The notes under the pieces: model-generated
The model's input: only the letters and a program-made list of their open reading frames with translations
What the model was told of the DNA's origin: nothing
Databases searched by the model: none
Shown: positions 4,195 to 30,155 of the stretch, piece after piece
Position numbering within the stretch: the stretch's first letter is position 1
Layout: every line of letters starts with the position of its first letter
Position numbers and translations under genes: made by a program
Origin: Candidatus Nanoarchaeia archaeon
GTDB lineage: Archaea; Nanobdellota; Nanobdellia; CSSed11-243R1
Direction: 5' to 3'
Length of the DNA: 32,000 nucleotides
NCBI GenBank assembly: GCA_028713895.1
Contig: JAQTNH010000001.1
Location: 61,847-93,846 of the forward strand

Positions 4195-5352
4195 ATGGCA
4201 GGAGTGATTTTCGGGTTTGTGCTGTTTTTGCTTGTGATTATTGCCACGTTTTTCTCACTGGTGAATGTCCTGACTGCGCTGGCAGGATTAAAACCTGCAA
4301 GGAATTACAGTGCGTACCAGCCAAAAGTCTCGGTGATTGTGCGCTCGTGGAATGATGATGCTGTGATTGAACGCTGCATAACAAACCTTTTGGAGCAGAA
4401 CTATCCCTCGGATAAATTTGAGGTGATAATAGCGGATGACAGCACAGACGACAAAACAAAGGACATCTGCGAGAAATTCAGTGACATACGATATGTAAAA
4501 GTCCCGCACAAGGAACTGAAAGCGGAAATCATTGACTATGTGATAAACAACTGCGCAGTCGGGGAGCTGATTGCAGAGACTGATGCTGATGCAGTGGCAG
4601 ACAAAAACTGGCTTGCAGAGATTGTAAAGCCTTTCCAGGACAGGAGCGTTGCAGGAGCAACAGGGCCTGTGGTTGCGGGCAACTGGAACAGCCTGATTGC
4701 AGCCACACGGGCAATCGAGGACTTCTGGCATTTCTGCTCAGGAGCCGGCGGAAGATACAGCCTTGCAAAAGCAGGGATAATTTACGGCGGAAACAAGGCA
4801 TACAGGAAATCGGCGTGGATGGAAGTCGGAGGGCACCCTACAAAGACAATGGCTGAAGACGCTGAGATATCAATGAAGTTTGTAGAGAAAGGCTACAAGG
4901 TTGTTTTTGCCAGGAATGCGCTTGTCATGCAGGAGGAAGTCGGGACAGTCAAACAATACCTGAGCGAAAGAAAACGCTGGACAAGCGCGGATTTTGCAGT
5001 CTGGAACAAGTACGGCAATATAATAAAAAGCAACATGCTGCATCACTTTCTGCTGATGTCAAACTTTTCAATGGATGCATGGCTTTTCTTCTCATGGCTG
5101 TTCATCTGGTTCGAGCCGCTTTTCATAATACCGCTTTTACTGAGCCTGATTACGCTTTGGATTGGATTTGCAGAGTACAAAGCAAGGCTTGGGTTCTACC
5201 TGTTCGCAGGCGCGTACACAATACTTAACCCGCTGCTCCAGACGCTCGCCATTCTCGGAGTGCTCAAGGACAGATATTTCGGCTCTGGAGTGAAGTGGGA
5301 CAAGGTTTGGCACCACCAGATTCCGCTAAAGTGGCCTGTGAAAAAAATATAA
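4195..5352 (+). CDS. Membrane-bound family 2 glycosyltransferase (processive-type architecture)
   Basis: N-terminal TM, then VSVIVRSWND..LEQNYP..FEVIIADDSTDD (GT2 DxD region) and ETDADAV. ERKRW sits where the Q-x-x-R-W motif is expected. Several C-terminal TM segments. Confidence 0.85.
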   Translation: MAGVIFGFVLFLLVIIATFFSLVNVLTALAGLKPARNYSAYQPKVSVIVRSWNDDAVIERCITNLLEQNYPSDKFEVIIADDSTDDKTKDICEKFSDIRYVKVPHKELKAEIIDYVINNCAVGELIAETDADAVADKNWLAEIVKPFQDRSVAGATGPVVAGNWNSLIAATRAIEDFWHFCSGAGGRYSLAKAGIIYGGNKAYRKSAWMEVGGHPTKTMAEDAEISMKFVEKGYKVVFARNALVMQEEVGTVKQYLSERKRWTSADFAVWNKYGNIIKSNMLHHFLLMSNFSMDAWLFFSWLFIWFEPLFIIPLLLSLITLWIGFAEYKARLGFYLFAGAYTILNPLLQTLAILGVLKDRYFGSGVKWDKVWHHQIPLKWPVKKI

Positions 5353-5638: not shown

Positions 5639-6306
5639 GAATAGCTGTAGAATCGCGGAGAGAGAACAGCATTGCAGAGACGCTGAAGCGGTTAGGGCAC
5701 AAAGTCACGGGCTGGAACCCCGAGCTTGTTGTCGCATTCGGCGGAGACGGAACATTTTTGCGAGCAGAGAGGATTTATCCAAACGTGCCAAAACTGTTCA
5801 TCTACAGTTCAGAAACATGCAAGTCATGCTGCGTGAATGATGTTGAAAATATTCTCCAAAAAATTCCGGGGCTGAAGTTCAGGGAAGAGATGAAGCTTGA
5901 TGCTGTAATACACGGAAAGAGGATTTCTGCGCTGAACGAGATAAATGTCCACTACAACCCGCCGCGGGCGCTGCGCTTTGATGTGCGGATAAACGGCAAG
6001 CTTATGGCAGAAAATGCAATAGGGGACGGTGTTGTTGTTGCGACACCTTTCGGCGCTTCTGCTTATTTCCACTCGATAACAGGGAGAAGGTTCACGAAAG
6101 GCATTGGAATCGCATTCAACAACCTGACAAAGAAAATGCGGGCAATTATTGCAAAAGAGAACTCTGAAATCGAGATTATTGTGAAAAGGGAAAACGGGAT
6201 TGTTGCGTGGGATGACTCGCTGAAAACAATACCCATAAAAGAAGGGGACATTATTAGGATACACAAGGGCGCGCCTGTAAAGGTGTGCCTGTTCAAGAAG
6301 GCATGA
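5635..6306 (+). CDS. nadK: NAD kinase
   Basis: GGDGT motif (VVAFGGDGTFLRA), NEINV, GDGVVVATPFGASAYFHS. ATGA overlap with the upstream stop (5635-5638). Short form (223 aa). Confidence 0.8.
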   Translation: MRIAVESRRENSIAETLKRLGHKVTGWNPELVVAFGGDGTFLRAERIYPNVPKLFIYSSETCKSCCVNDVENILQKIPGLKFREEMKLDAVIHGKRISALNEINVHYNPPRALRFDVRINGKLMAENAIGDGVVVATPFGASAYFHSITGRRFTKGIGIAFNNLTKKMRAIIAKENSEIEIIVKRENGIVAWDDSLKTIPIKEGDIIRIHKGAPVKVCLFKKA

Positions 6307-10856: not shown

Positions 10857-11807
10857 ATGCACAGGACACTGCTTGTTTTGCTGGCAATTGCATTTGCATT
10901 AGGATGCACAGGCTATAATCCGACGCAGGGGGCGGCTGAAGAAAATGTCACGTTGAGAATGAACGCGGCAGTCCCTGAACATGAAATGCAGCTGAATATT
11001 TCTTACCCGCTGCTGTATGAAAACCCGGTATGGAGCCACATGCCAATAAAAATTTACATTGACAGCGAAACCTCGCAGAACATAAGCTGGTTCAGCGAGA
11101 ATGTCATGGAGTACACGCGCAAAGGGATTGCAGAGTGGGAAAACGCAACAGGCGGACTGGTTTCTTTTGAAGAGATTACAAGCCCTGATGAAGCAGACAT
11201 AACAGTCTACTGGAACAAAAACATGGGGGAATCCGGAGGCGGAGTAAAGATAGGGGAAGCAAGACCATCTTATGTTGTTGATACTGGGTATTACAGCCTG
11301 ATTTCAGGAGGAACGATAACCCAGACACCATACACAACTTCCTGTGTAAACAAAGTGATTGCAACGCATGAAATCGGGCACATGCTCGGCTTGGACCACA
11401 ATGACAACGGGAAAAGCATAATGTACCCTTATGCATGGTGCTATCAGACAATCACTCCGGACATTGTTGATGCGCTTGAAAAAATTTACAACACTCCTGT
11501 TGAGGATAATACGGACATAGTCATGCTAAATGCCAGCGCAACAAGGCACGGGAGCTATGTTGATGCAGAAATTTACATTGCAAACAGGGGGGCTGCTGAC
11601 ACTCCTGCAACAAAACTTTCAGTTGTTGTGAATGACAGGGTTGTGCAGGAATTTGATGTTAAACCGCTGTCCGGCGGAATGTCAAGCGTGCTGAAATTCC
11701 AGAACGTGCATGTTGACGAAGAGTTTGATTCAGTGCAGCTTGAGCTCAACAGGGACAGGCTGTTCAATGAACTGTTCTATGACAATGATATTGCTGTCTT
11801 GAGTTAA
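10857..11807 (+). CDS. Matrixin-like (metzincin) zinc metalloprotease, putative lipoprotein, C-terminal CARDB-like domain
   Basis: HEIGHMLGLDH (HExxHxxGxxH) followed by the Met-turn SIMYP. N-terminus MHRTLLVLLAIAFALGC|TG (lipobox-like). C-terminus AEIYIANRGAADTPATKLSVVVND. TATA-like aatataaa at 10831-10838. Confidence 0.8.
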   Translation: MHRTLLVLLAIAFALGCTGYNPTQGAAEENVTLRMNAAVPEHEMQLNISYPLLYENPVWSHMPIKIYIDSETSQNISWFSENVMEYTRKGIAEWENATGGLVSFEEITSPDEADITVYWNKNMGESGGGVKIGEARPSYVVDTGYYSLISGGTITQTPYTTSCVNKVIATHEIGHMLGLDHNDNGKSIMYPYAWCYQTITPDIVDALEKIYNTPVEDNTDIVMLNASATRHGSYVDAEIYIANRGAADTPATKLSVVVNDRVVQEFDVKPLSGGMSSVLKFQNVHVDEEFDSVQLELNRDRLFNELFYDNDIAVLS

Positions 11808-11852
11808 GTTTATAATCAAAAATAACATTTAAAATTAAGAGGTTGAGATTAG

Positions 11853-12158
11853 ATGGGCTTCATGAAAGGATTTATATTGGCGGGAGCGTTTATAGCACTG
11901 ACAATTGCATTCGGAAGAAACAGCCTTCAAACTGCAATACCTGGACTCGTAGTTCTGTTTATGTTTGGTATGGTTGGCGGCAAATTTGGCTTGATACCAG
12001 GACTGGGATACGTACTTGCATTTGTTGCGCAGTTTTTAATAGGGGGTATACCACTCATTGGCTCATTTTTAATGAATAATGTCATGACGTGGGGAATTGG
12101 TTCAGTCGTTGTAGCAGTATTTTCTGGGGCTGATATTTTTATGGGCGAAAAGTCCTAA
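11853..12158 (+). CDS. Small membrane protein (3 hydrophobic segments)
   Basis: GAGGT at 11840-11844 precedes the ATG. Gly- and hydrophobic-rich sequence. No family recognised. Confidence 0.55.
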   Translation: MGFMKGFILAGAFIALTIAFGRNSLQTAIPGLVVLFMFGMVGGKFGLIPGLGYVLAFVAQFLIGGIPLIGSFLMNNVMTWGIGSVVVAVFSGADIFMGEKS

Positions 12159-12170
12159 TTTTTTCTTTTT
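12159..12170 (+). terminator. Oligo-T tract (archaeal-type terminator candidate)
   Basis: ttttttcttttt lies immediately after the TAA at 12156-12158. Confidence 0.4.
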
Positions 12171-12281
12171 GTTAAACCGCAAGGCTTTAAAAGGGATTAT
12201 TTTAAGATGTATCATGGTTGAGCCCAAAATAGAAGAAATTACCAAAAACCTGCAGAGAACAGTGGAAAAGATTATGATGCA

Positions 12282-12569
12282 ATGCCAAGCATAGGCGCAA
12301 AACTGAGCGAACCAGAGGCATTAACGCAGGAGCTAATAGGCTGGGCGATTTTCCATAAAATCCCTGGCAATCTTGTTTCCAACAGCCAGTTTTATTTTTT
12401 GTATAACACAGAAATAAATGTTTATTCCAGCAGCGCAATCGCTTTAAAGGATACAGAAAATTTTGATGATGCGGCACAGCATATAATGAGCTACCTTGTT
12501 AAGAGAGACGAGGTATACGCCAAATATCTGTGCCCTGAGAGGATTCTTTTTCAAGAAATACAAACGTAA
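12282..12569 (+). CDS. Hypothetical protein, possibly the 3' part of a frameshifted gene
   Basis: 95-aa ORF with no motif recognised. A 26-codon ORF (12208-12288, MVEPKIEEITKNLQRTVEKIMMQCQA) ends just inside it in another frame. Confidence 0.3.
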   Translation: MPSIGAKLSEPEALTQELIGWAIFHKIPGNLVSNSQFYFLYNTEINVYSSSAIALKDTENFDDAAQHIMSYLVKRDEVYAKYLCPERILFQEIQT

Positions 12570-12614
12570 GCTGCCTGAAAAGAGCCATATTACTGGACAT
12601 AGTGGACAACACCC

Positions 12615-12629
12615 TAAATAATAATAAGG
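12615..12629 (+). promoter_or_regulatory. TATA-like box for the LAGLIDADG gene
   Basis: ctaaataataataag, centred ~28 nt upstream of ATG 12650. Confidence 0.4.
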
Positions 12630-12649
12630 TCTTAATGCTTTATCTTTAA

Positions 12650-13933
12650 ATGAGAGCTTGGCATTTATGGGATTTTTCCCCAAACTTATTTACAATATCA
12701 TTAAATGATGAATTCATCGATTGTCTTAAAAATAAATTAAATAAGACTTCTTTTTATAAATTAGGAAAAAATATAAATTTAAATTATGTGTGTATACACC
12801 AAGCCTTTAACAGAAATAGATTCCCTTTATACATCATTCTAAAAATATGTAACTTTTTGAAAATTAACTATAAACGATTGGAGGAAAATGTTATATCATT
12901 TACATGTTACAATGGAAAAAATAGAGTAACTCTTCCAGTATTGCCAATTATCGAATCTAATGAATTGTATGAATTAATTGGACATCTATTAGGAGATGGG
13001 TATCTATCTAAAAAACTTGGCCAAATGAGCAATTATACGAATACGTCAAAAGAGCTGATTGGCAGGTTTATATTTTTGATAAATACGGTTTTTGGAAAAG
13101 TACACGTAGGTGTATATCATGATAAACGGTTTAATGCTGATACGATAGGTATACCCAAAGCATTAGAATTTATTTTATTTGAAATGTTTCCTGAATTAAA
13201 AGAAGGAAAAATGCCGCAAAATCTACTTGGATCACATCTACAATTTGCCTCTTCATTTATTAGCGCATTTGCAGATGACGAATCTTGCGTAACAACATCT
13301 GCGATAGTTTTAACTTCTATCAACAGATTACTGCTTTTAGACATAAAGAAACTTTTACTAAGTAGACTAGGATTCAGCGAAGATACAGTTACAGAAGTAA
13401 AAGCAAAAAAGAATCTATTTATATTGTCCATTAAAGGTAAGGGATTAAAAAAATTTAGCGAAGCGGTAGGTTTTGTACATCCGCAAAAACGAGAGGATTT
13501 ACTGTTTGAAATAGAAAGGAAAAACGCCAATAACAAGCCTAAAAGTGCGGGGCAAATCAAAGCAAAAATAACTCAGCAGCTGAATCTGCCAAAAACATCC
13601 AAGGAATTGTCCATAGTATTAAAAATCCAAAGACAGAATATAAGTAAGCACTTAAGGGAATTAAATAGTAAAGGTTATGTAGGAATACACTCTATTTCCA
13701 AATACAAAGTTCCGAAATGGATAAAATTAAAGGAGTTTATCCCTTTAACAGACAATTATAAAAATAATATCTTAAATCTTTTATTGACTAAGCGAGATTT
13801 AAGAACAAAGCAAATATCTGATTATCTAGTATTAAGCACGGATGAGACACTAAGATACTTACATCAGCTGAGAATCTCTGACAAAGTGTTTTATAAAGTC
13901 ATAGGGAAAACATATTATTGGGCGTTAAAATGA
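12650..13933 (+). CDS. Free-standing LAGLIDADG homing-endonuclease-like protein with HTH/winged-helix modules
   Basis: Motif 1 LIGHLLGDGYL and motif 2 FISAFADDES, with the acidic residue retained in both. C-terminal wHTH-like segments TSKELSIVLKIQRQNISKHLRELNSKGYV and LRTKQISDYLVLSTDETLRYLHQL. No Hint/intein blocks. Strongly AT-rich. Confidence 0.75.
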   Translation: MRAWHLWDFSPNLFTISLNDEFIDCLKNKLNKTSFYKLGKNINLNYVCIHQAFNRNRFPLYIILKICNFLKINYKRLEENVISFTCYNGKNRVTLPVLPIIESNELYELIGHLLGDGYLSKKLGQMSNYTNTSKELIGRFIFLINTVFGKVHVGVYHDKRFNADTIGIPKALEFILFEMFPELKEGKMPQNLLGSHLQFASSFISAFADDESCVTTSAIVLTSINRLLLLDIKKLLLSRLGFSEDTVTEVKAKKNLFILSIKGKGLKKFSEAVGFVHPQKREDLLFEIERKNANNKPKSAGQIKAKITQQLNLPKTSKELSIVLKIQRQNISKHLRELNSKGYVGIHSISKYKVPKWIKLKEFIPLTDNYKNNILNLLLTKRDLRTKQISDYLVLSTDETLRYLHQLRISDKVFYKVIGKTYYWALK

Positions 13934-16089
13934 ATATTGAAGAACTTGAGAAATTCGGGATATCCATGAAAATTGTAGAGCTGTTTAAAGAAGAAAGAAT
14001 TTTACGATTAAATCCTCCACAACAAAAAGCAATACAGACCGGATTGTTTGATGGTAAAGATATAGTCGTAGCATCTCCAACGTCTTCAGGCAAATCAATG
14101 ATTATGACTTTAGCCTTTATAAAGAACTTATTGTCTGAAGGCGGAAAGGCAATTTATATTTCTCCACTGAAAGCATTAGCAAGTGAAAAGTATGAATATT
14201 ATAAAAACTTGTTCAAAGAATATCCGCTTAAAGTTGCAATTAGCACGGGTGATTTTGATTCTTTTGATAGAGGGTTGGCTAATAACAATATTTTGATATT
14301 AACTGTAGAGAAACTTGATAGTTTGATTCGTCATAACATTCCATGGTTGAATGAAATCAAAGTTATAATTATAGACGAAATACATCTTTTGGATGACGCG
14401 AACAGAGGGCCTACACTTGAAGTCCTGATTACGCGCCTGAAAAACTTCTGCCCAAAGGCGCAGCTTATTGCGCTGTCTGCTACAATCTCAAATGCAGATG
14501 AGATTGCAAAATGGCTCGGCGCAGAACTTGTGAAAAGCGATTATCGTCCAGTTGAACTGCATGAGGGAGTTTACATAAACGGCGAGCTTGACTTTGGCGG
14601 TAAAATTGAGAAGCTGAAGGGCAAGTCAGATGTTCCGGAAATCAGGATTCTTGAAGACACGCTTGCAAAGAACAAGTCAATGCTGCTTTTTGTTTCGAGC
14701 AGGCGCAATGCAGAAGGCTGCGCAAAGAAATGCGCTGACACAGTTGCTGCAAGCCTGAATGCTGAGGAGAAAAAAGAACTGGAAGCGCTGAGCAAGGAAA
14801 TTCTTGATGTTCTTGAAACACCGACAAAGCAGTGCGAGGATTTGGCAGAGTGCGTTAAAAGCGGAGTTGCATTCCATCATGCTGGCTTGGTTGCGAAACA
14901 GCGCAGCCTGATTGAAAATGCATTCCGAAGCAGACTCATTAAAATAATTTGTTGCACTCCAACTTTGGCCGCGGGCTTAAATTTACCTGCATTCCGCGCT
15001 GTTGTGCGGGATTTGAAGCGATTTGACTCGGAGGAAGGAATGGGATTCATTCCTGTGCTGGAGTTTAAGCAAATGTGCGGCAGAGCAGGTAGGCCAGGCT
15101 TGGATGACTCAGGACAAGGAATCGCGATTGCAAAGACAGTGAAGGAAGCAGAGGAGATTCGTGAAAAGTATATCAAAGGTATTCCAGAAGATGTTTACTC
15201 AAAACTGTCAGTCGAGCCTGTGCTGAGAATGCAGATTCTCGGACTGATTTCAACCGGAGAAATAATCGACAGGAAATCGCTGATGGGATTTTTTGCAAAA
15301 ACATTTTATGCTGTCCAGTACAAGAACCTTGACAGGATTGAAAACAATCTTGACAAGATAATGAACGAGTTAATTGGCTGGGGATTCATAAAACCTGAGG
15401 GTCAGAAGCTTCTTCCCACGCTGATTGGAAAGCGAGTTGCCGAGCTTTATATTGACCCGTACTCTGCGCACAAAATAATGGAGGCGCTGAAGAAATCAAA
15501 CCAGGAGCCGCTTTACTACATCCACACAATATGTTCGTGCGTTGAGATGCGCCCGCTGCTTTACATCTCCTCGAAGGATTTTTCTGAACTGCAGCAGAAG
15601 TCGCTGAAGTTTGATGATGTGCTTCCTGAGGCGCCGTCTGCATGGGATGTTGATTATGAAGTATGGTTCCGCGCAATCAAGACAGCTTTCATGCTGAATG
15701 ACTGGATAGGGGAAAAGAACGAGGCACAGCTGTTTGATGAATATCACGAAACTCCTGGAATGCTGAAGAACAGGCTGAACAATGCTGACTGGATGCTTTA
15801 TTCCATGGGCGAAATTGCAGGACTGCTCAAGAGAAAAGAGGACCTGACTCCCTTGCGAAAGCTGCGGATAAGGATGAAATACGGCGCAAAGGAAGAGCTG
15901 CTCAATCTTCTGCGGTTCGAGGGAATCGGAAGAATCAGGGCGCGAAAGCTTTACTTCAGCGGAATCAAGAGCGTTGTTGATGTAAAGAAAATCGCATATG
16001 AGAAGCTCTCTGACTTAATCGGGCCAAAGATTGCAAAGAAGCTCAAGGACCAGGTTGTCAGCGAGGAGCAACAGAATTTGGGACAATAA
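13930..16089 (+). CDS. hel308: Hel308/Ski2-like superfamily 2 DNA helicase
   Basis: Motif I SPTSSGKS, II DEIH, III SAT, IV-V HHAGL and TPTLAAGLNLPA, VI QMCGRAGRPG. C-terminal HhH-like LRFEGIGRIRARKL. ATG 13930 (the track starts at TTG 13918) forms an ATGA overlap with the upstream stop. Confidence 0.9.
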   Translation: MNIEELEKFGISMKIVELFKEERILRLNPPQQKAIQTGLFDGKDIVVASPTSSGKSMIMTLAFIKNLLSEGGKAIYISPLKALASEKYEYYKNLFKEYPLKVAISTGDFDSFDRGLANNNILILTVEKLDSLIRHNIPWLNEIKVIIIDEIHLLDDANRGPTLEVLITRLKNFCPKAQLIALSATISNADEIAKWLGAELVKSDYRPVELHEGVYINGELDFGGKIEKLKGKSDVPEIRILEDTLAKNKSMLLFVSSRRNAEGCAKKCADTVAASLNAEEKKELEALSKEILDVLETPTKQCEDLAECVKSGVAFHHAGLVAKQRSLIENAFRSRLIKIICCTPTLAAGLNLPAFRAVVRDLKRFDSEEGMGFIPVLEFKQMCGRAGRPGLDDSGQGIAIAKTVKEAEEIREKYIKGIPEDVYSKLSVEPVLRMQILGLISTGEIIDRKSLMGFFAKTFYAVQYKNLDRIENNLDKIMNELIGWGFIKPEGQKLLPTLIGKRVAELYIDPYSAHKIMEALKKSNQEPLYYIHTICSCVEMRPLLYISSKDFSELQQKSLKFDDVLPEAPSAWDVDYEVWFRAIKTAFMLNDWIGEKNEAQLFDEYHETPGMLKNRLNNADWMLYSMGEIAGLLKRKEDLTPLRKLRIRMKYGAKEELLNLLRFEGIGRIRARKLYFSGIKSVVDVKKIAYEKLSDLIGPKIAKKLKDQVVSEEQQNLGQ

Positions 16090-16091
16090 TA

Positions 16092-16697
16092 TTATTGCTC
16101 TATTTCGTTTTTTTCCAAATAAGGACACTTTTTGCATCTATGTTTTAGAACTTCTGCAAGAGGTTTATAAAAAGGTTCGGATACAGCCATCATGTTCAAT
16201 ACCTGATACGCTTTGTGCCTGCAATAAACTGCCGCCTCAGCTTTCTCTTTTTGTTTGCTCAGTACGCTATATTCAGTCATTGATTTAACAAGAGCATTTG
16301 CTTCAACATTTTTTGGTATCCCTATTTCAGTTTCAGCTATTTTTTGACACTGTTCTAAAATGCCCCCAAGTTTGAAGCTGTCTTCAAAAGAGGGTATTTC
16401 ATCTTTTGAATTAGATTTTTTGAATATTTCTTCGCCAATTTTTGCTATATCTGAATAGATACTATACAGATCCTTGCCTATGATGCCTATAATGTATTTT
16501 TCATCGTCTTCTAAATCTTTTTTCCAAAGTCCCCAAAGTTCTGCTGCTTGTTTTTTGGTACTTATACTGCCTAACTCTTTGATAGCTATAATGCCCACTG
16601 TTTTTTCGACAATTTCCATTAAAACAGAATCCAAAGTAAAACACATTGCTTTCTTTGCGTCTACTGCAAAAACAGGCAGTTCATCTGAGCTTTTCAT
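16092..16697 (-). CDS. Hypothetical protein (201 aa), AT-rich ORFan
   Basis: Uninterrupted ORF convergent with hel308 (2-nt gap). TATA-like ctttatatacc ~37 nt upstream. C-terminal HRCKKCPY. No family recognised. Confidence 0.55.
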   Translation of the reverse strand: MKSSDELPVFAVDAKKAMCFTLDSVLMEIVEKTVGIIAIKELGSISTKKQAAELWGLWKKDLEDDEKYIIGIIGKDLYSIYSDIAKIGEEIFKKSNSKDEIPSFEDSFKLGGILEQCQKIAETEIGIPKNVEANALVKSMTEYSVLSKQKEKAEAAVYCRHKAYQVLNMMAVSEPFYKPLAEVLKHRCKKCPYLEKNEIEQ

Positions 16698-16774
16698 AGT
16701 ATCCCTTTTTGATTACTACTTATTAGTGGTATATAAAGCTTTCTTTTGTGCAAAAGAGAGCAGACAAAGCTGGA

Positions 16775-17452
16775 TTAGTGCGTTATTTTTGATTCCTCAA
16801 CAAACATCTTAACGAAATTTATCATGTATTCGGACTTTTCTTTGACCATCTCTTTTGCAGTTTTTGTATGCAGCCTCTGGTAAACCTCCACTGCATGCCT
16901 GTATACATTGTGTATTGCGCTCTTTTTTCCAGAGTCAACATCATCAAATGACAGGGAGGGGACGTAAAGAGGCGTATGTGCATTTGTGCAGTATTCTATA
17001 ATGCGGGCAATTCCTATTGCGCCCAAGCCAAGAATTGAATCAGCATCCTGCAGATACCAAATCTCCCGCTTTTCAGTTGGAGTTTCCCTGCCGCGCATGA
17101 ATGGCTTTGTATCATCATGCAGCAGTATTGCCTCAAGGACAGCCTCTATCTTTTCGTTGGGAAATCCTACTTGAGGCAGGATATCTTGTGCACATTTTTT
17201 GCTGCGTTCAGGATGATGCACCTGTTTCGGGTCATCAGGGTCAAGAAACGCATACCCTGTGTCATGGAACATGCAGCCTGCGTAGACAACTTCCATGTCA
17301 ACCTCAACGCCCTCGCCTTCATCTATTCTCTTTGCCAGCCCCCAGACATCTTTGTGATGCTGGAAATCATGGCCAAAATTCGGGCTTTGAAGGATTAGCC
17401 TGACTGCGTCTTCCAGTTTATCCATATAATCCCAGTTGTAATTATTTACCAT
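16775..17452 (-). CDS. HD-domain metal-dependent phosphohydrolase
   Basis: The H..HD..D pattern: GHDFQHHKDV, MFHDTGY, LLHDD, LQDADS. I prefer the internal ATG at 17452 (MVNNYNWDYMDKLEDA) because the 30 extra N-terminal codons of the track ORF look non-coding. Confidence 0.8.
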   Translation of the reverse strand: MVNNYNWDYMDKLEDAVRLILQSPNFGHDFQHHKDVWGLAKRIDEGEGVEVDMEVVYAGCMFHDTGYAFLDPDDPKQVHHPERSKKCAQDILPQVGFPNEKIEAVLEAILLHDDTKPFMRGRETPTEKREIWYLQDADSILGLGAIGIARIIEYCTNAHTPLYVPSLSFDDVDSGKKSAIHNVYRHAVEVYQRLHTKTAKEMVKEKSEYMINFVKMFVEESKITH

Positions 17453-17542
17453 TATTATCCCCAGAACCCCACCAGAGTTATGGTTAAAACCTGCATTTAT
17501 TAATCTTGCTTTTAAACAGAAGATACTAAAAATCAGTGACAC

Positions 17543-17553
17543 AAAATTTAAAT
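17543..17553 (+). promoter_or_regulatory. TATA-like box for the 17577 gene
   Basis: aaaatttaaat, centred ~29 nt upstream of the ATG. Confidence 0.4.
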
Positions 17554-17576
17554 GGGACGTTTGGATATGTTATATT

Positions 17577-17981
17577 ATGAAAAAGCTCCCTTTCGATCTT
17601 GTTTCAAAGCTAAGCTATTTTTATACCACTCCAGACAAGGAATGGGACAAAAAGGATACAAAACTGTTCTATGATATTACACGGATTATTTCAAAAGATG
17701 GCACATATGTCCAGGATGATACATCTATGAACTCGTGGACTAAGCGAAGCAAGCGCAAAATAAAACCGCCTAATTATCTGGAAAGGGCTGTGCTTGACAG
17801 CTGTTCTGAACTGAATAAGTTCAGAACTATCCAGAACCCTGACAGCATTTCCTGCGAACTAACAAAGAGCCGGCTCGTATGTATTAAAACAAAAGATGAA
17901 GGCGGCATAGTCGGAGCTTATTTTATAGGTTTTGGAGAGCTAGAAGAAAAACTTAGAGAGGCATATTCTAAAAAGAAGTAA
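17577..17981 (+). CDS. Hypothetical protein (134 aa), AT-rich ORFan
   Basis: ORF with leaderless-type promoter spacing. No motif recognised. Confidence 0.55.
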   Translation: MKKLPFDLVSKLSYFYTTPDKEWDKKDTKLFYDITRIISKDGTYVQDDTSMNSWTKRSKRKIKPPNYLERAVLDSCSELNKFRTIQNPDSISCELTKSRLVCIKTKDEGGIVGAYFIGFGELEEKLREAYSKKK

Positions 17982-17988
17982 TAATTAA

Positions 17989-18111
17989 TGGGGCTGGAGA
18001 GATTTGAACTCTCGACCACACGCATTTCAGGACTTTTCTTTCGCTGGCGTTTCTTTTCGCAAAAGAAAGGCCGCCCCAAGCGCGCATTCTACCAAGCTGA
18101 ACTACAGCCCC
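17989..18111 (-). tRNA. tRNA-Pro (anticodon GGG) with a 49-nt intron; no encoded CCA
   Basis: Hand-folded. Acceptor GGGGCUG/CAGCCCC, U8 A9, D-arm GUUC-AGCUUGGUA-GAAU (G18 G19). Anticodon stem CGCGC/GCGUG, loop UU-GGG-G..U, variable UGGUC. T-arm GAGAG-UUCAAAU-CUCUC, discriminator A. 74 nt mature plus 49 nt intron gives 123 nt. Confidence 0.85.
18025..18073 (-). other. tRNA intron at the canonical 37/38 position
   Basis: The sequence between G37 and U38 is CGGCCUUUCUUUUGCGAAAAGAAACGCCAGCGAAAGAAAAGUCCUGAAA. It contains a perfect 8-bp hairpin UUUCUUUU-GCG-AAAAGAAA (18050-18068). Exact splice boundaries are inferred from the cloverleaf. Confidence 0.7.
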
Positions 18112-18177
18112 GTTTAATAAATAAATCTAATTTTGCTCTTAAAAAGGTTTTTAATGTAATAATTCCTTTAAAAAGAC

Positions 18178-19407
18178 ATGAAAATCCCTTTAATGAAAAG
18201 AGGACAGGACAGGGGATATGCTGTACCATTGATTCTGCTCGGGTTTTTAGGCGTGTTTCTCCTGTACATAATATTAGTTTACCCATCTGAGCGCGCAAAG
18301 CTGCTCAACATAGACACTGATAATGGAGAAGAGGTTTCGCCGTTAGGGGAAGGAACCGAGGTTCTTTACAGCAGCGGAGAGCGTTTTGAAGTCGGCAGGG
18401 CGGTTGGAAGCGAGGTTTTCAGCTGGAAACTCAACAATGCAATCGTAAGCCATGCTGCTGTGCCAAAAACTCTTGACTCCACAGCAAACAGGGTGATGTC
18501 TGCAACGCTTGTGAGCTCGGACACAGAATCTTTCAGCGCAAACAATCTTAATCTCGCAAACACAAAAGATGTTGTTGTAAAACTTAACATTGAATCAATA
18601 AAGGGAAACCCAAAAATACAGATTATACTCAACAAGACAATGATTTATGAAAAAGCCGCGGCAGCAGGAGAGACAAACATCCGGATACAGCCGGGGCTTC
18701 TTGATGAAGACAGCAACCCGATATATGTGAAGGTGCTTCACCAGGGAGCTGCATTCTGGAGCGTGCAGTCAGTCAGTTTCAACTCTATAAATATTGACCA
18801 GTATTATTACGACCCTGAAAACTCAATAAGCCCGCAAAATGTGATAATTTCCGAGAACAATTACAGGGGCAGCAGAGTGAACCTTATATTCAATGTCACG
18901 AGCGCTGTAACAGACGGGGAGCTTAACATAGCAATCCAAAAGCCAGGAGCAGCGAAGACTGTTGTATGGAGCGGAGCTCCAGAACTCGGGGTTGCAACAG
19001 CTTCATTTGACATTGACCAGATTGGAATCGGGGAAAACATAATCTCATTTGAGGCAAAGAAAGGCGGAGAGTACGCAATTGCGAACACAACACTGAAGTT
19101 CTTCGCTGAGAGCCAGCCTCCTGCAATAAAAACATATTCCTTTGACATTGAAGCCTCAAAACTGTATTCAGGCAGGGTTATAATGCTCGGCGTGAAAGTT
19201 GACAGGATAATTGAGCCAGGCTCATTGTTCTTCACAGTAGGAGCAAGCCCGCTGTCCTATTACTTCCCGTCAGCAGACATAGCTTCAGGAGCATGGAGCT
19301 ACACGCAGCTTGACAAAGGAAAGCTAAAGGAGCTCGGGAACAAGATAATACTTGACTCTGTCAACGGACGCTTCAGCATAAGCGGATTGATGATAATATT
19401 AAAGTAA
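18178..19407 (+). CDS. N-terminally anchored extracellular protein, first gene of the surface operon
   Basis: N-terminus MKIPLMKRGQDRGYAVPLILLGFLGVFLLYIILVY. The alternative ATG 18193 fits TTTAAAAA at 18165-18172 as a leaderless start. Sequons NKT, NVT, NTT. No family recognised. Confidence 0.7.
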   Translation: MKIPLMKRGQDRGYAVPLILLGFLGVFLLYIILVYPSERAKLLNIDTDNGEEVSPLGEGTEVLYSSGERFEVGRAVGSEVFSWKLNNAIVSHAAVPKTLDSTANRVMSATLVSSDTESFSANNLNLANTKDVVVKLNIESIKGNPKIQIILNKTMIYEKAAAAGETNIRIQPGLLDEDSNPIYVKVLHQGAAFWSVQSVSFNSINIDQYYYDPENSISPQNVIISENNYRGSRVNLIFNVTSAVTDGELNIAIQKPGAAKTVVWSGAPELGVATASFDIDQIGIGENIISFEAKKGGEYAIANTTLKFFAESQPPAIKTYSFDIEASKLYSGRVIMLGVKVDRIIEPGSLFFTVGASPLSYYFPSADIASGAWSYTQLDKGKLKELGNKIILDSVNGRFSISGLMIILK

Positions 19408-27680: not shown

Positions 27681-30155
27681 TTAAAACTCGCCGAGACTCT
27701 TTTGTTTGGTCGGCTTGCCCAATGTCAAGTCTTTTGGAAACTCAGGAACCCCGTATTCGCCGTCATAGCCTGGCTTGACTGTGACTTTTCCCTCTCTGTT
27801 AAGCATGATTGCCTTTGCAAGGCGGCGGTCAACATGCTGGCACAATTCCTCTTCCTTGGCATCCAGTAGAATGTGAAGCTCGTTCGGGAACTTTGCCATC
27901 AACGCATCAAAGACTCTGCTGACTGTCTTAGTGCCGACTGCTGTAAGATAGATTGCGGAAATAATTTCCTGAAGCGGAAGAATTGACTTGAAAGGGATTG
28001 CGTGCGCTGGCTTGAATCCTTCTGGGCGGTCAGCAAGCTCCTCAACGCGGTGCTCTACCCCGATGGTCAGCCCTTTGTGGCATTTCGGGCAGATATCCTT
28101 TTGCGCAATAGATTCTTTTGGCGACAAACAAATGTTGCAGGCACGGTGTCCGTCGTAGTGGTATTTGCCATAAAGCGGCGAGGTTTCAATCGTGTAAAGG
28201 AACTCGGATTTGTTTTTTGTCTTGATTGCATTGAGCATTGATTTAAGAGAAGGCTTTGCGAGCTCGAAGACATTTGCTTCCCTTCCAAGGCGGTTCGGCC
28301 AGGGAGAGTGGCAGTCGCTGTTGCTTATGCAGCAGAACCTGTCAAGCTGTGACAGACGCCAGTTCATCGCAGGGTCCGACGAAAGTCCGGTTTCGATTGC
28401 ATGAATGTGCCTGATTGAATCCCCAAAGCATTCCTCTGCTGAGTTGAACCCTGACTCAGAGCCGAACATTGAAAACCAGGGGGTCCAACAGTTATGGACT
28501 GTCGCAAATTCGGTTACATAAGAATTGTCATCCTCTACTTCAAGATTGTATACTAAACCATCATAATCTTCGAATTTAATTGTTCTTATCGGAAGATAGG
28601 CATAATTTTTGTCAATCCATCCATGCTTCATTGCTTTCTTATTAACAAATTTTCTGAAACATTTTTCTTTCAACATATCGTAATCTTCTTCAAAAAAGGA
28701 TAAGTTAGAAAAAACGATTGTGTCATTTACTGTTTTAATTGTTCGCCCCTTAGTAATATGTTTTCGCATATTAAATTTTTCAGCGGTTTCAACACCTATT
28801 GAAGGTATTATACCCAATTTAAGGCAAATCATTTTCATTTGATTTGCCAGTTTGCGTGAAACTGTATATCCTGTATCCCCCCTCCACCATCCGCGCAATA
28901 TTTCAGCTATTTTAGGGTCTGGTAATAATATCATCCAATCAGGGATACATTTGTTCCATGCTCGCGAGCCATCTGTATAAAACAATTGTTTAAACAGTTC
29001 ATTTAAAATATGAGAATAAAACACAATATCCATCTGATTTTCACGTCTATTATCTATCTTAAATGAAGTTACACCAAAACTTTCTTTCATAAACATTATT
29101 ACTTCATTCGCATATTCTTTCTCTTTAGCATGAAAACTGAAACCTACTGCTTCATTTCTTACTAAGTAACCTTCTGCGATATAATAACCTGCTAAACGGC
29201 AAAAATTATTGTTAATTTGAATTGTGTTATGTATCATGTTTTTTTTATTTTTGGATTTTTGTGGCAAAATTTTGTCAGAATCAGATAGTTTACAGTTAAC
29301 CAGTTTATTTAGTTTTATAGAATCCACATCTTTTATTTCAATTGGTCGAGGATACAATAAAAAGTCTCCAACTTCAAGATTTTTTGCCTGAACCCATTCG
29401 GGTTTGTAGCCACTGTAATATTTTCGCTTGCATTCCATGCGCTGAGAACATAAAGGTTTACATACGCCTTTAATCCAAGAGCACTTTTTAAGACTTTTAA
29501 TTACAAAAAAAGGATGTTCTGGTGTTGTTGTTAGACCCTCTCTAAAATACCAAGGAACAATTTTATGAACTTTTCCAGAATAGTTTCGAGTATAAACCTG
29601 TTTTATTGTTTTGAATCTACATTTATGTGTTAAGACTTTGTCTCCAATCTGTACTTCTTTTATTTTTTTGTCATCGGGATTACAATGTAAAATTGTGTCA
29701 GGCAATAAACAATGCGCGGGGAAAATAAAGTTGTCCTTGTTGATTTCCATAACTTTCTCAACGAATTCCGGGGTTGGGATATTAAAGATTGGCCTGCCGT
29801 CGTAGTCCACTCTCCCTCTTGTCTTCAACCACTCTGTGATTTGCTCGGCTGTCTCAATGTCCGGCGAGACAATGCAGTGATGCACGCGGTAGCCTTTTCC
29901 ATTCTGCGTGTAAATGAGAGAGACTTCTGTGCTCGGGACAAAATTCATTCCGTTGTGCACATAGAATCCTGTTTCGCTGTCTAGCTTCAGCAGGCGCTTC
30001 ATGTCAGCCATCTGGCTCGGATGGGTGTAATCGCCTGTGCCAAGAAGATTGAGCCCCTTCATCTTTGCGTATTTTGAAAGGCTGTCAATGTTCATGTCAG
30101 GAGAGGTTGCCCTGCTGTATCTGGAATGAATGTGCAAATCAGCAACGAGTTTCAA
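27681..30155 (-). CDS. endoQ: EndoQ-like PHP-domain endonuclease with Zn ribbon, interrupted by an intein
   Basis: N-terminus MKLVADLHIHSRYSRATSPDM..LGTGDYTHP (PHP). After the intein, CWTPWFSMFGSESGF..HAIETGLSSDP. Zn ribbon CNIC..CPKC. The exteins sum to 417 aa. TTG start 4 nt after GGTGA (30160-30164), which overlaps the PAC2 stop. Confidence 0.75.
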   Translation of the reverse strand: MKLVADLHIHSRYSRATSPDMNIDSLSKYAKMKGLNLLGTGDYTHPSQMADMKRLLKLDSETGFYVHNGMNFVPSTEVSLIYTQNGKGYRVHHCIVSPDIETAEQITEWLKTRGRVDYDGRPIFNIPTPEFVEKVMEINKDNFIFPAHCLLPDTILHCNPDDKKIKEVQIGDKVLTHKCRFKTIKQVYTRNYSGKVHKIVPWYFREGLTTTPEHPFFVIKSLKKCSWIKGVCKPLCSQRMECKRKYYSGYKPEWVQAKNLEVGDFLLYPRPIEIKDVDSIKLNKLVNCKLSDSDKILPQKSKNKKNMIHNTIQINNNFCRLAGYYIAEGYLVRNEAVGFSFHAKEKEYANEVIMFMKESFGVTSFKIDNRRENQMDIVFYSHILNELFKQLFYTDGSRAWNKCIPDWMILLPDPKIAEILRGWWRGDTGYTVSRKLANQMKMICLKLGIIPSIGVETAEKFNMRKHITKGRTIKTVNDTIVFSNLSFFEEDYDMLKEKCFRKFVNKKAMKHGWIDKNYAYLPIRTIKFEDYDGLVYNLEVEDDNSYVTEFATVHNCWTPWFSMFGSESGFNSAEECFGDSIRHIHAIETGLSSDPAMNWRLSQLDRFCCISNSDCHSPWPNRLGREANVFELAKPSLKSMLNAIKTKNKSEFLYTIETSPLYGKYHYDGHRACNICLSPKESIAQKDICPKCHKGLTIGVEHRVEELADRPEGFKPAHAIPFKSILPLQEIISAIYLTAVGTKTVSRVFDALMAKFPNELHILLDAKEEELCQHVDRRLAKAIMLNREGKVTVKPGYDGEYGVPEFPKDLTLGKPTKQKSLGEF
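28491..29711 (-). mobile_element. Full-length intein (407 aa) with LAGLIDADG homing endonuclease domain
   Basis: Begins C149 (FPAH|CLLPDTILHC, block A). Block B LTTTPEHPFFV. LAGLIDADG motifs LAGYYIAEGYL and LRGWWRGDTGY. Block F VYNLEVEDDNSYV. Ends ATVHN|C556 (block G plus the +1 Cys). In-frame 1221 nt, much more AT-rich than the exteins. Confidence 0.85.

What the first reader, a model, noticed from the sequence alone, without database searches (positions are those of the whole stretch)
12615..14400. Free-standing LAGLIDADG/wHTH gene translationally coupled to hel308, with a sharp GC step inside hel308
The 427-aa protein has both LAGLIDADG motifs with the acidic residues kept (LIGHLLGDG, FISAFADDE), plus three HTH-like modules. 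It has no Hint blocks and has its own TATA-like box. Its TGA overlaps the hel308 ATG (ATGA at 13930-13933). Hand-counted GC of 60-nt lines runs 30% (starting 12901), 30% (14101), 23% (14281) and 33% (14341). It then jumps to 52% (14401), 47% (14461) and 50% (15001). The first ~470 nt of hel308, through motifs I to II (DEIH at ~14374-14385), therefore shares the A/T-ending codon style of the endonuclease gene. The rest of hel308 looks like the core genome. This is what a free-standing homing endonuclease gene arriving with a co-converted stretch of its target gene from an AT-richer donor would leave. Alternatively the protein is a domesticated HEG-derived regulator of hel308.
Basis: partly seen in the sequence, partly recalled or inferred. 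Interest (0 to 1): 0.65.

Follow-up and report, generated by a model that had tools for sequence, protein, structure and literature searches.

The report
Mobile endonuclease gene invading hel308
A selfish DNA-cutting-enzyme gene has inserted between the promoter and start codon of the DNA-repair helicase gene hel308 in a tiny (DPANN) archaeon, overwriting the first 153 codons with foreign AT-rich sequence; relatives show both filled and empty versions of the site.

Summary
A 1.78-kb low-GC block (12615-14390, GC 0.30 against about 0.45) covers a 427-aa LAGLIDADG/winged-helix ORF and hel308 codons 1-153. The hel308 GC3 change-point is at codon 153 (0.27 to 0.51) and exceeds all 2000 permutations.

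- Ten of ten lineages carrying a close homologue have it directly 5' of hel308, or of a split hel308-N gene, with the same ATGA overlap.
- The relatives closest by the rest of hel308 lack the gene and share gene neighbours with the HEG-carrying loci (L012/L014 for the window, L020 for L001). L020 is a clean empty site for L001.
- Hel308 residues 1-150 and 161-719 give conflicting trees (100% against 90% bootstrap).
- Synonymous divergence from the other HEG-bearing lineage is about 0.1-0.4 inside the block and saturated outside it.
- The same 3' junction (codons about 150-162) recurs in L022 and L007.
- The active-site residues GDG and DDE are invariant, and dN/dS is 0.1-0.2.

One correction: the "own TATA box" lies just downstream of the resident hel308 promoter element, which HEG-less relatives also have. 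The gene sits behind that promoter.

This is a previously undescribed archaeal free-standing LAGLIDADG homing element. Cleavage itself is untested.

The parts
12589..12618 (+). Resident hel308 promoter element ATTACTGGACATAGTGGACAACACCCTAAA, which serves as the upstream homology arm
   Evidence: The same element lies about -62 to -33 from the HEG ATG in the window and L001. It lies at the same distance from the hel308 ATG in HEG-less L020, L012 and L014. TGGACAAYACCC occurs once per locus, and twice in L001-type loci. GC here is host-like.
12619..12649 (+). 5' junction and cassette leader (AATAATAAGGTCTTAATGCTTTATCTTTAA) containing the TATA-like run
   Evidence: The window and L001 stay alike here, whereas L001 and the empty-site L020 diverge right after CCCTAAAGA. 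The maximum-likelihood start of the low-GC block is 12615.
12650..13933 (+). Free-standing LAGLIDADG homing endonuclease gene, 427 aa. Domains: N-terminal helical module (residues 1-95), double-motif LAGLIDADG core (about 96-292; GDG 115-117, DDE 209-211), wHTH 1 (about 300-360), wHTH 2 (about 366-427)
   Evidence: Pfam LAGLIDADG_3 and HTH_5. AlphaFold2 pLDDT 90. The top Foldseek PDB matches are the TliVMA and PI-PfuI intein endonuclease domains and I-DmoI (target TM 0.71). GDG and DDE are invariant in 13 homologues. dN/dS is 0.1-0.2. GC 0.30, GC3 0.26.
13930..13933 (+). ATGA: the HEG stop codon TGA overlaps the hel308 start codon ATG
   Evidence: Read directly from the sequence. The same 4-nt overlap is seen in L001, L004, L007, L008, L009 and L016. 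Adjacent coordinates are found in L022, L026 and L027.
13930..14388 (+). hel308 codons 1-153 (motifs I, Ia, Ib, II): imported, co-converted part of the helicase gene
   Evidence: GC3 is 0.27. Identity is 87% to HEG+ L001 but 48-55% to the relatives closest by the C-terminal part. In the N-terminal tree the window and L001 group at 100% bootstrap. pS against L001 is 0.15-0.7 here and 0.75-0.97 downstream.
14299..14313 (+). Motif Ib codons LTVEK: a signature of HEG-linked alleles and a candidate immunity or target polymorphism
   Evidence: All six HEG-linked helicases first aligned, plus L016, have LTVEK. Most HEG-less Hel308 and split N-fragments have TTSEK, CTTEK or VTAEK. LTVEK without the HEG occurs in L015 and L017.
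14374..14391 (+). Motif II codons DEIHLL: the last cassette-type signature (HLL against HML/HVL in HEG-less relatives)
   Evidence: Residue-level alignments.
14389..14410 (+). 3' crossover interval (codons about 153-160)
   Evidence: The GC3 change-point is at codon 153. L153 is the last cassette-type residue. From about residue 159 the sequence is identical to HEG-less P0018 and P0019 for some 20 residues. The same position recurs in L022 (codon about 150) and L007 (codon 162).
14389..16089 (+). Resident (vertically inherited) part of hel308: end of RecA1, RecA2, winged helix, domain 4, HhH
   Evidence: GC3 is 0.51. Residues 223-719 are 71-75% identical to HEG-less P0017, P0018 and P0019 but 64% to L001. 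The C-terminal tree groups the window with L012/L014 at 90%. Pfam finds DEAD, Helicase_C, Helicase_dom4_arc and HHH_5.

Best explanation
The 427-aa ORF is a free-standing, monomeric double-motif LAGLIDADG homing endonuclease gene. It carries extra DNA-binding modules: one N-terminal helical module and two C-terminal winged helices. It lives at one genomic address in DPANN (Woesearchaeota/Nanoarchaeota-like) archaea, between the hel308 promoter and the hel308 start codon.

Shown here:
- The unit [about 30-nt leader + HEG + first ~153 codons of hel308] is compositionally foreign.
- It is phylogenetically discordant with the rest of hel308.
- It is shared between lineages whose resident hel308 parts have saturated synonymous divergence.
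- It is absent from the closest relatives, which share gene neighbours with the HEG-carrying loci.
- It replaced the ancestral 5' end; it was not added beside it.

Inferred:
- The enzyme cuts HEG-less hel308 alleles inside the 5' coding region. The most likely position is between motif Ib and motif II, roughly window 14290-14395.
- The break is resected and repaired from a HEG+ copy.
- The upstream crossover uses the conserved promoter element. The downstream crossover uses the highly conserved stretch just after motif II.
- The HEG-linked allele (LTVEK, DExHLL) is the uncleavable version and therefore always travels with the HEG.
- Sitting behind the hel308 promoter with an ATGA stop/start overlap lets the element be expressed while hel308 stays expressed.
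For: Composition:
- The low-GC block is 12615-14390. The GC3 step at codon 153 exceeds all 2000 permutations.
- The HEG has GC 0.26-0.34 in hosts of GC 0.28-0.50.

Fixed address:
- Ten of ten close-family lineages have the HEG directly 5' of hel308 or split hel308-N. These are the window, L001, L004, L007, L008, L009, L016, L022, L026 and L027.

Presence and absence:
- L012, L014 and L020 lack the HEG.
- L020 and L001 share 89-94% nucleotide identity on both flanks. Identity is only 39-71% over the first ~1260 nt of hel308 and 89-100% after that.

Mosaic structure:
- Identity tables and sliding profiles.
- Conflicting bootstrapped trees.
- pS is 0.1-0.4 across 13235-14350 and saturated beyond 14400.
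- No leftover copy of the old 5' end is present.

Recurrent 3' junction:
- L022 hel308-N has GC3 0.29 before and 0.58 after codon 153. Its sliding GC jumps at codon 150.
- L007 has a change-point at codon 162, p = 0.026.
- A longer tract, to about codon 420, is seen in L001. Variable tract length is what double-strand-break repair predicts.

Enzyme:
- GDG and DDE are invariant.
- The fold matches I-DmoI and intein endonuclease domains.
- dN/dS is 0.1-0.2.
- One copy has a nonsense codon, as expected from the HEG decay cycle.

Precedent and control:
- In phage T4, free-standing endonucleases cut hundreds to thousands of bp from their own gene, and flanking DNA is co-converted (PMC2988022).
- A bona fide LAGLIDADG intein in the same window is a similar low-GC island.
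Against: - No cleavage assay exists. The target site is inferred only from allele signatures and junction positions.
- LTVEK alleles occur without the HEG (L015, L017). That signature may therefore be partly lineage-specific rather than immunity-specific.
- The auxiliary catalytic lysines could not be assigned with confidence.
- L001 alone shows no significant GC3 step.
- The window and L001 cassettes are 74% (HEG) and 87% (N-terminus) identical, so no recent donor has been sampled.
- No viral or plasmid vector was found.
- The three contigs carrying the window's mosaic protein are 100% identical and may derive from the same reads.
Confidence: 0.72

Rival explanations
1. Domesticated nuclease or regulator partner of Hel308 (WhiA-like, or a repair nuclease working with the helicase). 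In this reading the protein is a host factor encoded in an operon with hel308. It is exchanged horizontally together with a co-adapted N-terminal helicase piece because the two proteins interact.
For: - The LAGLIDADG + HTH architecture resembles WhiA, which is Foldseek rank 29 and aligns over 305 columns.
- The ATGA coupling is strictly conserved in all lineages.
- Purifying selection is strong.
- A specific promoter element sits next to the gene and its wHTH domains could bind it.
- I-TevI is a precedent for a homing endonuclease that also acts as a repressor (PMC3384342).
Against: - WhiA-type domestication goes with loss of the acidic catalytic residues (PMC3384342). Here they are invariant.
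- The gene is rare: 14 clusters against thousands of Hel308 clusters. It is absent from the closest relatives.
- The promoter element also exists in HEG-less genomes, so a host factor must serve it.
- The co-transferred segment ends at codon ~153, inside the RecA1 domain, or at ~420 in L001. It is therefore not a protein-domain unit.
- One copy carries a nonsense codon.
Confidence: 0.14
2. Ordinary homologous recombination or horizontal transfer of a hel308 5' segment that happens to carry an inactive or hitch-hiking LAGLIDADG ORF. In this reading the nuclease does not drive the transfer.
For: - hel308 in this clade is highly mosaic even away from the HEG. P0016 changes its nearest relative again at about codon 415-420, and P0019 is mosaic too.
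- No cleavage data exist.
Against: - The association between the HEG and the imported N-terminal type is ten of ten lineages.
- The 3' junction recurs in independent lineages.
- The active-site residues are invariant and dN/dS is low over a family that has diverged to about 40% identity. This argues that the nuclease function is maintained.
Confidence: 0.1
3. Metagenome assembly chimera: reads of an AT-rich relative were joined to this genome at conserved hel308 motifs.
For: - The window comes from a metagenome-assembled contig.
- The 3' junction lies in a highly conserved motif.
- The NCBI MAG contig begins only 119 nt upstream of the HEG.
Against: - Two junctions would be needed, with a return to host-like DNA that shares gene neighbours with relatives upstream.
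- An identical structure appears in three assemblies.
- The same architecture and junction occur in unrelated samples: L001 in ENA, JGI and Logan assemblies, plus L022 and L007.
Confidence: 0.03

Closest known systems
Free-standing homing endonucleases of T-even phages (SegF, SegG, MobE; 'intronless homing')
   Same: - The gene lies outside any intron or intein, next to a conserved gene.
- It is inherited together with a co-converted tract of the neighbouring gene.
- The inferred cut site lies hundreds of bp from the endonuclease gene, with a resistant linked allele (PMC2988022).
   Different: - Those enzymes are GIY-YIG or HNH proteins in phage genomes. This one is a LAGLIDADG enzyme with winged-helix modules in a cellular archaeal chromosome.
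- It is inserted between a promoter and a start codon and is translationally coupled to the target gene.
- Cleavage here is not demonstrated.
Archaeal monomeric LAGLIDADG enzymes: I-DmoI (rRNA intron) and intein endonuclease domains (PI-PfuI, TliVMA)
   Same: - The double-motif fold is shared: Foldseek target TM is about 0.7 to I-DmoI, and the best E-values are to the TliVMA and PI-PfuI endonuclease domains.
- The acidic residue at the end of each motif is conserved.
- NCBIfam aligns residues 79-341 to the intein part of RpoA''.
   Different: - There is no intron and no Hint or splicing domain.
- It has about 95 extra N-terminal and about 130 extra C-terminal residues that form HTH or wHTH modules.
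HO endonuclease of yeast (free-standing and LAGLIDADG, intein-derived, with an added DNA-binding domain)
   Same: It is a free-standing chromosomal LAGLIDADG nuclease with appended DNA-binding modules that drives gene conversion (PMC3384342).
   Different: - HO keeps Hint remnants and is a fixed host function for mating-type switching.
- This gene lacks Hint blocks, is sporadic, and behaves as a selfish element.
WhiA/DUF199
   Same: It has a LAGLIDADG scaffold followed by a C-terminal HTH, and it is a structural match.
   Different: [quoted passage not shown] Here the acidic residues are invariant and the distribution is patchy.
Hel308 inteins (for example cluster P0030, 1222 aa)
   Same: This is another LAGLIDADG selfish element exploiting the same host gene in related archaea.
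   Different: The intein sits in motif V (window residue about 347). It is spliced at the protein level and is unrelated to the 5' junctions described here.

Membership tests
LAGLIDADG homing endonuclease (monomeric, double-motif) | [quoted passage not shown] | tested here: met
   - Pfam LAGLIDADG_3 at 1.6e-6.
- The AlphaFold2 model has pLDDT 90 with the expected order of elements.
- Foldseek matches I-DmoI with target TM 0.71 and probability 1.0.
LAGLIDADG homing endonuclease (monomeric, double-motif) | Acidic metal-binding residue at the C-terminal end of each LAGLIDADG helix | tested here: met
   G115-D116-G117 and D209-D210-E211 are invariant in 13 homologues that have diverged to 28-74% identity.
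LAGLIDADG homing endonuclease (monomeric, double-motif) | Auxiliary basic residues in the active site (I-DmoI K43 and K130 equivalents) | tested here: inconclusive
   Conserved K/R residues exist near the expected positions. No residue-level structural superposition was available to assign them.
LAGLIDADG homing endonuclease (monomeric, double-motif) | Site-specific double-strand cleavage of a long target | not testable with these tools
   This needs a biochemical assay.
Free-standing HEG with intronless homing | Not embedded in an intron or intein | tested here: met
   - It is a separate ORF with its own start and stop codons.
- No Hint or intein-splicing hit was found.
- No Rfam intron was found in 11500-18500.
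Free-standing HEG with intronless homing | Patchy presence at one conserved genomic address, with empty sites in close relatives | tested here: met
   - Ten of ten carriers have it directly 5' of hel308.
- Empty sites are L012, L014 and L020. L020 is 89-94% identical to L001 in the flanks.
Free-standing HEG with intronless homing | Co-conversion of flanking target-gene sequence with variable tract ends | tested here: met
   - GC3 step.
- Discordant trees.
- pS profile.
- Tracts end at codon ~153 in the window, L022 and L007, and at ~420 in L001.
Free-standing HEG with intronless homing | The endonuclease cuts the HEG-less allele and spares the HEG-linked allele | not testable with these tools
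   Only candidate signatures exist: LTVEK and DExHLL against TTSEK and DExHML.
Intein | Hint splicing blocks and in-frame insertion in a host protein | tested here: not met
   - No Intein_splicing or Hint hit was found.
- Foldseek alignments to inteins cover only the endonuclease domain.
- The protein starts MRAW and ends WALK, and it is a separate ORF.
WhiA/DUF199-type domesticated LAGLIDADG regulator | Loss of catalytic acidic residues, and universal vertical conservation | tested here: not met
   The acidic residues are invariant. The distribution is sporadic.
Hachiman (HamA-HamB) defence pair | A HamA (DUF1837) nuclease next to a HamB helicase, as a dedicated accessory system | tested here: not met
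   - The HEG has no defence-family hit beyond weak wHTH matches.
- The helicase matches HamB models only over the SF2 core.
- The helicase aligns end to end with Hel308 models and has domain 4 and HhH.
Hel308 (the target gene) | SF2 motifs plus archaeal helicase domain 4 and a C-terminal HhH domain | tested here: met
   - Pfam finds DEAD, Helicase_C, Helicase_dom4_arc and HHH_5.
- NCBIfam PRK02362 covers residues 1-715 at 3.5e-229. The score of 763 bits is below the 887-bit equivalog cut-off.

The most novel reading that the evidence does not exclude
The hel308-linked genes may be only the best-resolved branch of a large, unannotated archaeal family of free-standing 'HTH-LAGLIDADG-wHTH' genes. 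The representative search found 415 clusters at 50% identity, and every member whose source name was checked is called 'hypothetical protein'.

In this reading these genes park at the 5' ends of housekeeping genes, or inside their operons, and capture the host promoter. They then drive recurrent segmental replacement of those genes across DPANN and other archaea. This could be a main cause of housekeeping-gene mosaicism, and perhaps of gene splitting, in these reduced genomes.

A sharper version is that the winged-helix modules bind the ACTGGACA promoter element. The element would then both regulate and depend on hel308 expression, placing it part-way to domestication.
Probability: 0.3. Interest if true: 0.72.

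Novelty: new variant of a known kind. Interest (0 to 1): 0.56.

Why it matters
- Free-standing homing endonucleases with co-conversion are textbook for phage T4, where they are GIY-YIG or HNH enzymes. To my knowledge they have not been described as LAGLIDADG genes resident in archaeal chromosomes. Library searches found no paper linking LAGLIDADG genes with Hel308, and none among the DPANN/homing-endonuclease hits listed appears from its title or abstract to describe such an element.
- The locus offers natural filled, empty, decaying and differently converted alleles of one site. That makes homing in uncultivated DPANN archaea directly testable.
- A core repair helicase is being rebuilt piecemeal by a selfish element. 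This matters for using such genes as phylogenetic markers and for interpreting GC islands in MAGs.
- The enzyme family, with long targets and modular wHTH add-ons, is a possible source of new rare-cutting nucleases.

Tried and rejected
- Cassette carrying its own helicase fragment: I first read the 223-224-aa DEAD-only ORFs downstream of some homologues (L004, L008, L009) as cassette cargo. This was rejected. RecA1-only hel308-N genes of about 220 aa are very common in Woese/Nanoarchaeota, so these are split host genes.
- Link to the Hel308 intein: the intein of P0030 lies in motif V, at window residue ~347. It is not at either junction.
- Relation to the intein in the same window (27681-30155): there is no significant similarity beyond the motif.
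- Leftover ancestral hel308 5' fragment or target-site duplication in the window: none was found by tblastn. The repeats flanking the block are short and look like chance matches.
- RNA elements or introns in 11500-18500: only a tRNA was found.
- Defence-system reading: PADLOC gives only SF2-core HamB matches for the helicase and nothing meaningful for the HEG.
- Viral or plasmid-like vector: there is no relative in IMG/VR or in INPHARED phages.
- ACTGGACA as a general promoter word: it is not enriched in the window, with 3 matches against 0.8 expected and 6 of 100 shuffles reaching 3. The longer element is specific to the locus.
- L017's upstream 310-aa ORF as a decayed HEG: it shows no similarity.

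Full report
**1. The observation**

- The window has 43% GC. Its best Hel308 matches are DPANN archaea labelled Woesearchaeota or Nanoarchaeota.
- ORF 12650-13933 (+) encodes 427 aa. It has LIGHLLGDG at residues 109-117 and FISAFADDE at residues 203-211.
- Pfam finds LAGLIDADG_3 and an ArsR-type HTH and no Hint domain.
- Its TGA stop overlaps the hel308 ATG in ATGA at 13930-13933.
- hel308 (13930-16089, 719 aa) has the full Hel308 architecture.
- GC in 300-nt windows is 0.24-0.34 from 12601 to 14400 and 0.45-0.48 after that.
- The maximum-likelihood low-GC segment is 12615-14390.
- The GC3 change-point inside hel308 is codon 153, with 0.27 before and 0.51 after. Its log-likelihood ratio is 15.4, against a maximum of 10.8 in 2000 permutations. 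It falls three codons after DEIH.
- HEG-less hel308 genes of relatives show no such step.

**2. The protein**

- An AlphaFold2 model built on 13 homologues is confident, with pLDDT 90.
- The core, about residues 96-292, is a double-motif LAGLIDADG fold. Its best PDB matches are the endonuclease domains of the TliVMA and PI-PfuI inteins and I-DmoI (target TM 0.71). WhiA also matches.
- Two C-terminal winged helices, about 300-360 and 366-427, are supported by profile matches to ArsR/SmtB and Zα domains.
- The N-terminal helical module is supported by the model only.
- GDG 115-117 and DDE 209-211 are invariant across homologues down to 28% identity.
- dN/dS is 0.1-0.2.
- The family is small: 14 clusters at 90% identity. 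It is embedded in a wider set of 415 clusters at 50% identity, mostly about 370 aa. Members whose source names were checked are called 'hypothetical protein'.

**3. A fixed address**

- Every close homologue whose context could be read lies directly 5' of hel308. The ATGA overlap was read directly in seven lineages. The other three show adjacent coordinates consistent with it.
- In the window, L001 and L007 the downstream gene is full-length hel308.
- In L004, L008, L009, L016, L022, L026 and L027 it is a 223-224-aa RecA1-only ORF.
- Such split hel308-N genes are common in these archaea whether or not the HEG is present. They are host genes, not cargo.

**4. Empty sites**

- The window's nearest relatives by the C-terminal part of Hel308, P0017 (L012) and P0018 (L014), have no HEG.
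- L012 shares the neighbouring M10 peptidase gene and a ~410-aa gene with the window. L014 shares the ~410-aa gene.
- L020 is an empty site for L001. The flanks are 89-94% identical.
- L001 additionally holds a PIN-like/RHH gene pair, the HEG, and a diverged first ~1260 nt of hel308. Identity over that stretch is 39-71%, then 89-100%.

**5. The promoter**

- A 30-nt element, ATTACTGGAnAnAnTGGACAAnACCCTAAA, lies at the same distance from the HEG ATG in the window (12589-12618) and in L001. It lies at that same distance from the hel308 ATG in HEG-less L020, L012 and L014.
- It occurs once per locus, and twice in L001-type loci.
- L001 and L020 diverge right after CCCTAAAGA. This corresponds to window ~12619, four bases from the composition-based block start.
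- The HEG therefore sits behind the resident hel308 promoter.
- A shorter ACTGGACA element also precedes the HEG in L004, L008, L022, L026 and L027.

**6. The mosaic helicase**

| Window Hel308 residues | Identity to L001 (HEG+) | Identity to P0017, P0018, P0019 |
|---|---|---|
| 1-153 | 87% | 48-55% |
| 154-222 | 86% | 78-90% |
| 223-719 | 64% | 71-75% |

- P0017 and P0018 were confirmed HEG-less by their loci. P0019's locus was not read, and it counts as HEG-less only because its N-terminus is of the HEG-less type.
- In neighbour-joining trees, residues 1-150 put the window with L001 at 100% bootstrap, inside the group that holds the other HEG-linked helicases.
- Residues 161-719 put the window with L012/L014 at 90%, and L001 with HEG-less P0022 at 82%.
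- Synonymous difference between the window and L001 is 0.1-0.4 over 13235-14350. It is saturated (0.75-0.97) beyond 14400. It is also high (0.6-1.0) in the 5' half of the HEG. The cassette is therefore itself mosaic.
- The last cassette-type residue is L153. From about residue 159 the window is identical to HEG-less relatives.
- No remnant of the replaced 5' end exists.

**7. Recurrence**

- In L022, where the host GC is 0.49, the HEG has GC 0.34. The split hel308-N gene jumps from GC3 0.29 to 0.58 at codon ~150-153.
- L007 has a change-point at codon 162, p = 0.026.
- L001's tract runs to about codon 420. Upstream of that point it is nearly identical to P0019, and downstream to P0022.
- The pattern is a common minimal 3' end just past motif II, with occasional longer tracts. 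That fits double-strand-break repair from a break in the hel308 5' region.
- In phage T4, free-standing endonucleases cut hundreds to thousands of bp from their gene and co-convert the interval (PMC2988022).
- HEG-linked alleles share LTVEK (motif Ib, 14299-14313) and DExHLL (14374-14391). HEG-less alleles mostly have TTSEK-like and DExHML/HVL. I propose these as the immunity polymorphisms.
- The signature is not exclusive. L015 and L017 have LTVEK without the HEG.

**8. Life cycle**

- Intact copies, a copy with one in-frame stop (L016) and empty sites coexist. This matches the gain-decay-loss cycle of homing endonuclease genes.

**9. Rivals**

- A WhiA-like domesticated regulator is disfavoured by the retained catalytic residues, the patchiness and the non-domain tract ends (PMC3384342).
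- A Hachiman-like defence pair is rejected.
- Plain recombination with a passive ORF cannot be excluded without biochemistry, because hel308 is mosaic elsewhere too.
- An assembly chimera is unlikely. It would need two junctions, the structure is identical in three assemblies, and the architecture recurs in unrelated samples.

**10. Verdict**

- This is a new, unannotated archaeal variant of free-standing ('intronless') homing: a LAGLIDADG enzyme with wHTH modules, parked behind the promoter of hel308 and translationally coupled to it.
- Shown: foreign composition, a fixed address, empty and filled sites, segmental replacement with recurrent junctions, and a conserved active site.
- Inferred: that the enzyme's own cleavage drives the transfer, and where it cuts.

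Noticed in passing
window 27681-30155 (-), low-GC core 28501-29700: An 824-aa TIGR00375/PHP-family protein carries a LAGLIDADG intein, with Intein_splicing, LAGLIDADG_3 and PT-HINT hits. The intein is a GC 0.30-0.33 island between exteins of GC 0.48-0.50. It is a second AT-rich LAGLIDADG invader in the same window. It is not detectably related to the free-standing gene.
   Followed up: partly
window 17989-18111 (-): Rfam finds a 123-nt tRNA at 52 bits, which is probably intron-containing. ARAGORN reports no tRNA anywhere in the window.
   Followed up: no
window 10857-19404 compared with L012, L001, L014 and L020: hel308 is inverted relative to its neighbours. In the window its 5' end faces the M10 peptidase gene and its 3' end faces the ~410-aa gene at 18178-19404. 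In L012 the reverse holds, and in L001, L014 and L020 the ~410-aa gene is divergent from the hel308 5' end. The inversion breakpoint must lie between 12158 and 12589. Any link to HEG arrival is unknown.
   Followed up: partly
L001 5163-5974: The 35-nt hel308 promoter element is present twice, at about 5165-5201 and 5940-5974. The two copies flank a PIN-like 151-aa ORF and a 90-aa RHH ORF (a VapBC-like pair) that is absent from the empty site L020.
   Followed up: partly
P0135-P0254; L004, L008, L009, L016, L017, L022, L026, L027: hel308 is split in many Woesearchaeota/Nanoarchaeota-labelled genomes. A stand-alone RecA1-only ORF of about 220 aa ends at the same position (…GVYLDGE.xF). The C-terminal part is not adjacent.
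   Followed up: partly
P0016 (L001 7284-9458), P0019, P0022: L001's Hel308 is a three-part mosaic. Residues 1-150 are cassette-type, 150-415 are 92-100% identical to P0019, and 420-724 are 92-100% identical to P0022. P0019 is itself mosaic relative to both. The second junction lies at the end of RecA2.
   Followed up: partly
P0030 (1222 aa): A related Hel308 carries a LAGLIDADG intein inserted in motif V (TPTL|…|GVNLP), at window residue about 347.
   Followed up: yes
L035 3120-5824; L037 3159-5962: Distant relatives of the HEG, LAGLIDADG_3 proteins of 329-337 aa, are wedged with overlapping stops and starts between a glmU-like nucleotidyltransferase gene and glmS. This occurs in two unrelated contigs. 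It is a possible second example of operon-embedded free-standing LAGLIDADG genes.
   Followed up: partly
L023 808-3065; L028-L030 3483-5977: LAGLIDADG + HTH_5 proteins of 382-394 aa, 26-29% identical to the HEG, lie convergent with a radical-SAM gene. This is seen in a Hadarchaeota-labelled MAG and in JGI contigs.
   Followed up: no
L016 2-895: This HEG copy is 71% identical to L008's and has a single in-frame stop (…LVGF*EENL…). The gene caller split it into 113-aa and 160-aa ORFs. The downstream hel308-N is intact.
   Followed up: yes
L019 (GCA_028713185.1, JAQTPB010000005.1): This MAG contig starts at window position 12531, only 119 nt upstream of the HEG. A contig break here may reflect strain heterogeneity at the junction or the inversion point.
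   Followed up: no
window 13745-13930 (HEG residues 366-427): The best PDB sequence matches of the last winged helix are Zα (Z-DNA-binding) domains of PKZ, ADAR1 and ZBP1, at E = 7e-4. ArsR/SmtB repressors rank just below.
   Followed up: no
L021 = L004 (CAYVNN010000003.1): The record is titled 'uncultured Methanosarcinales archaeon'. However, the locus has 28% GC, a split hel308 and DPANN-like content, so the label looks doubtful.
   Followed up: no
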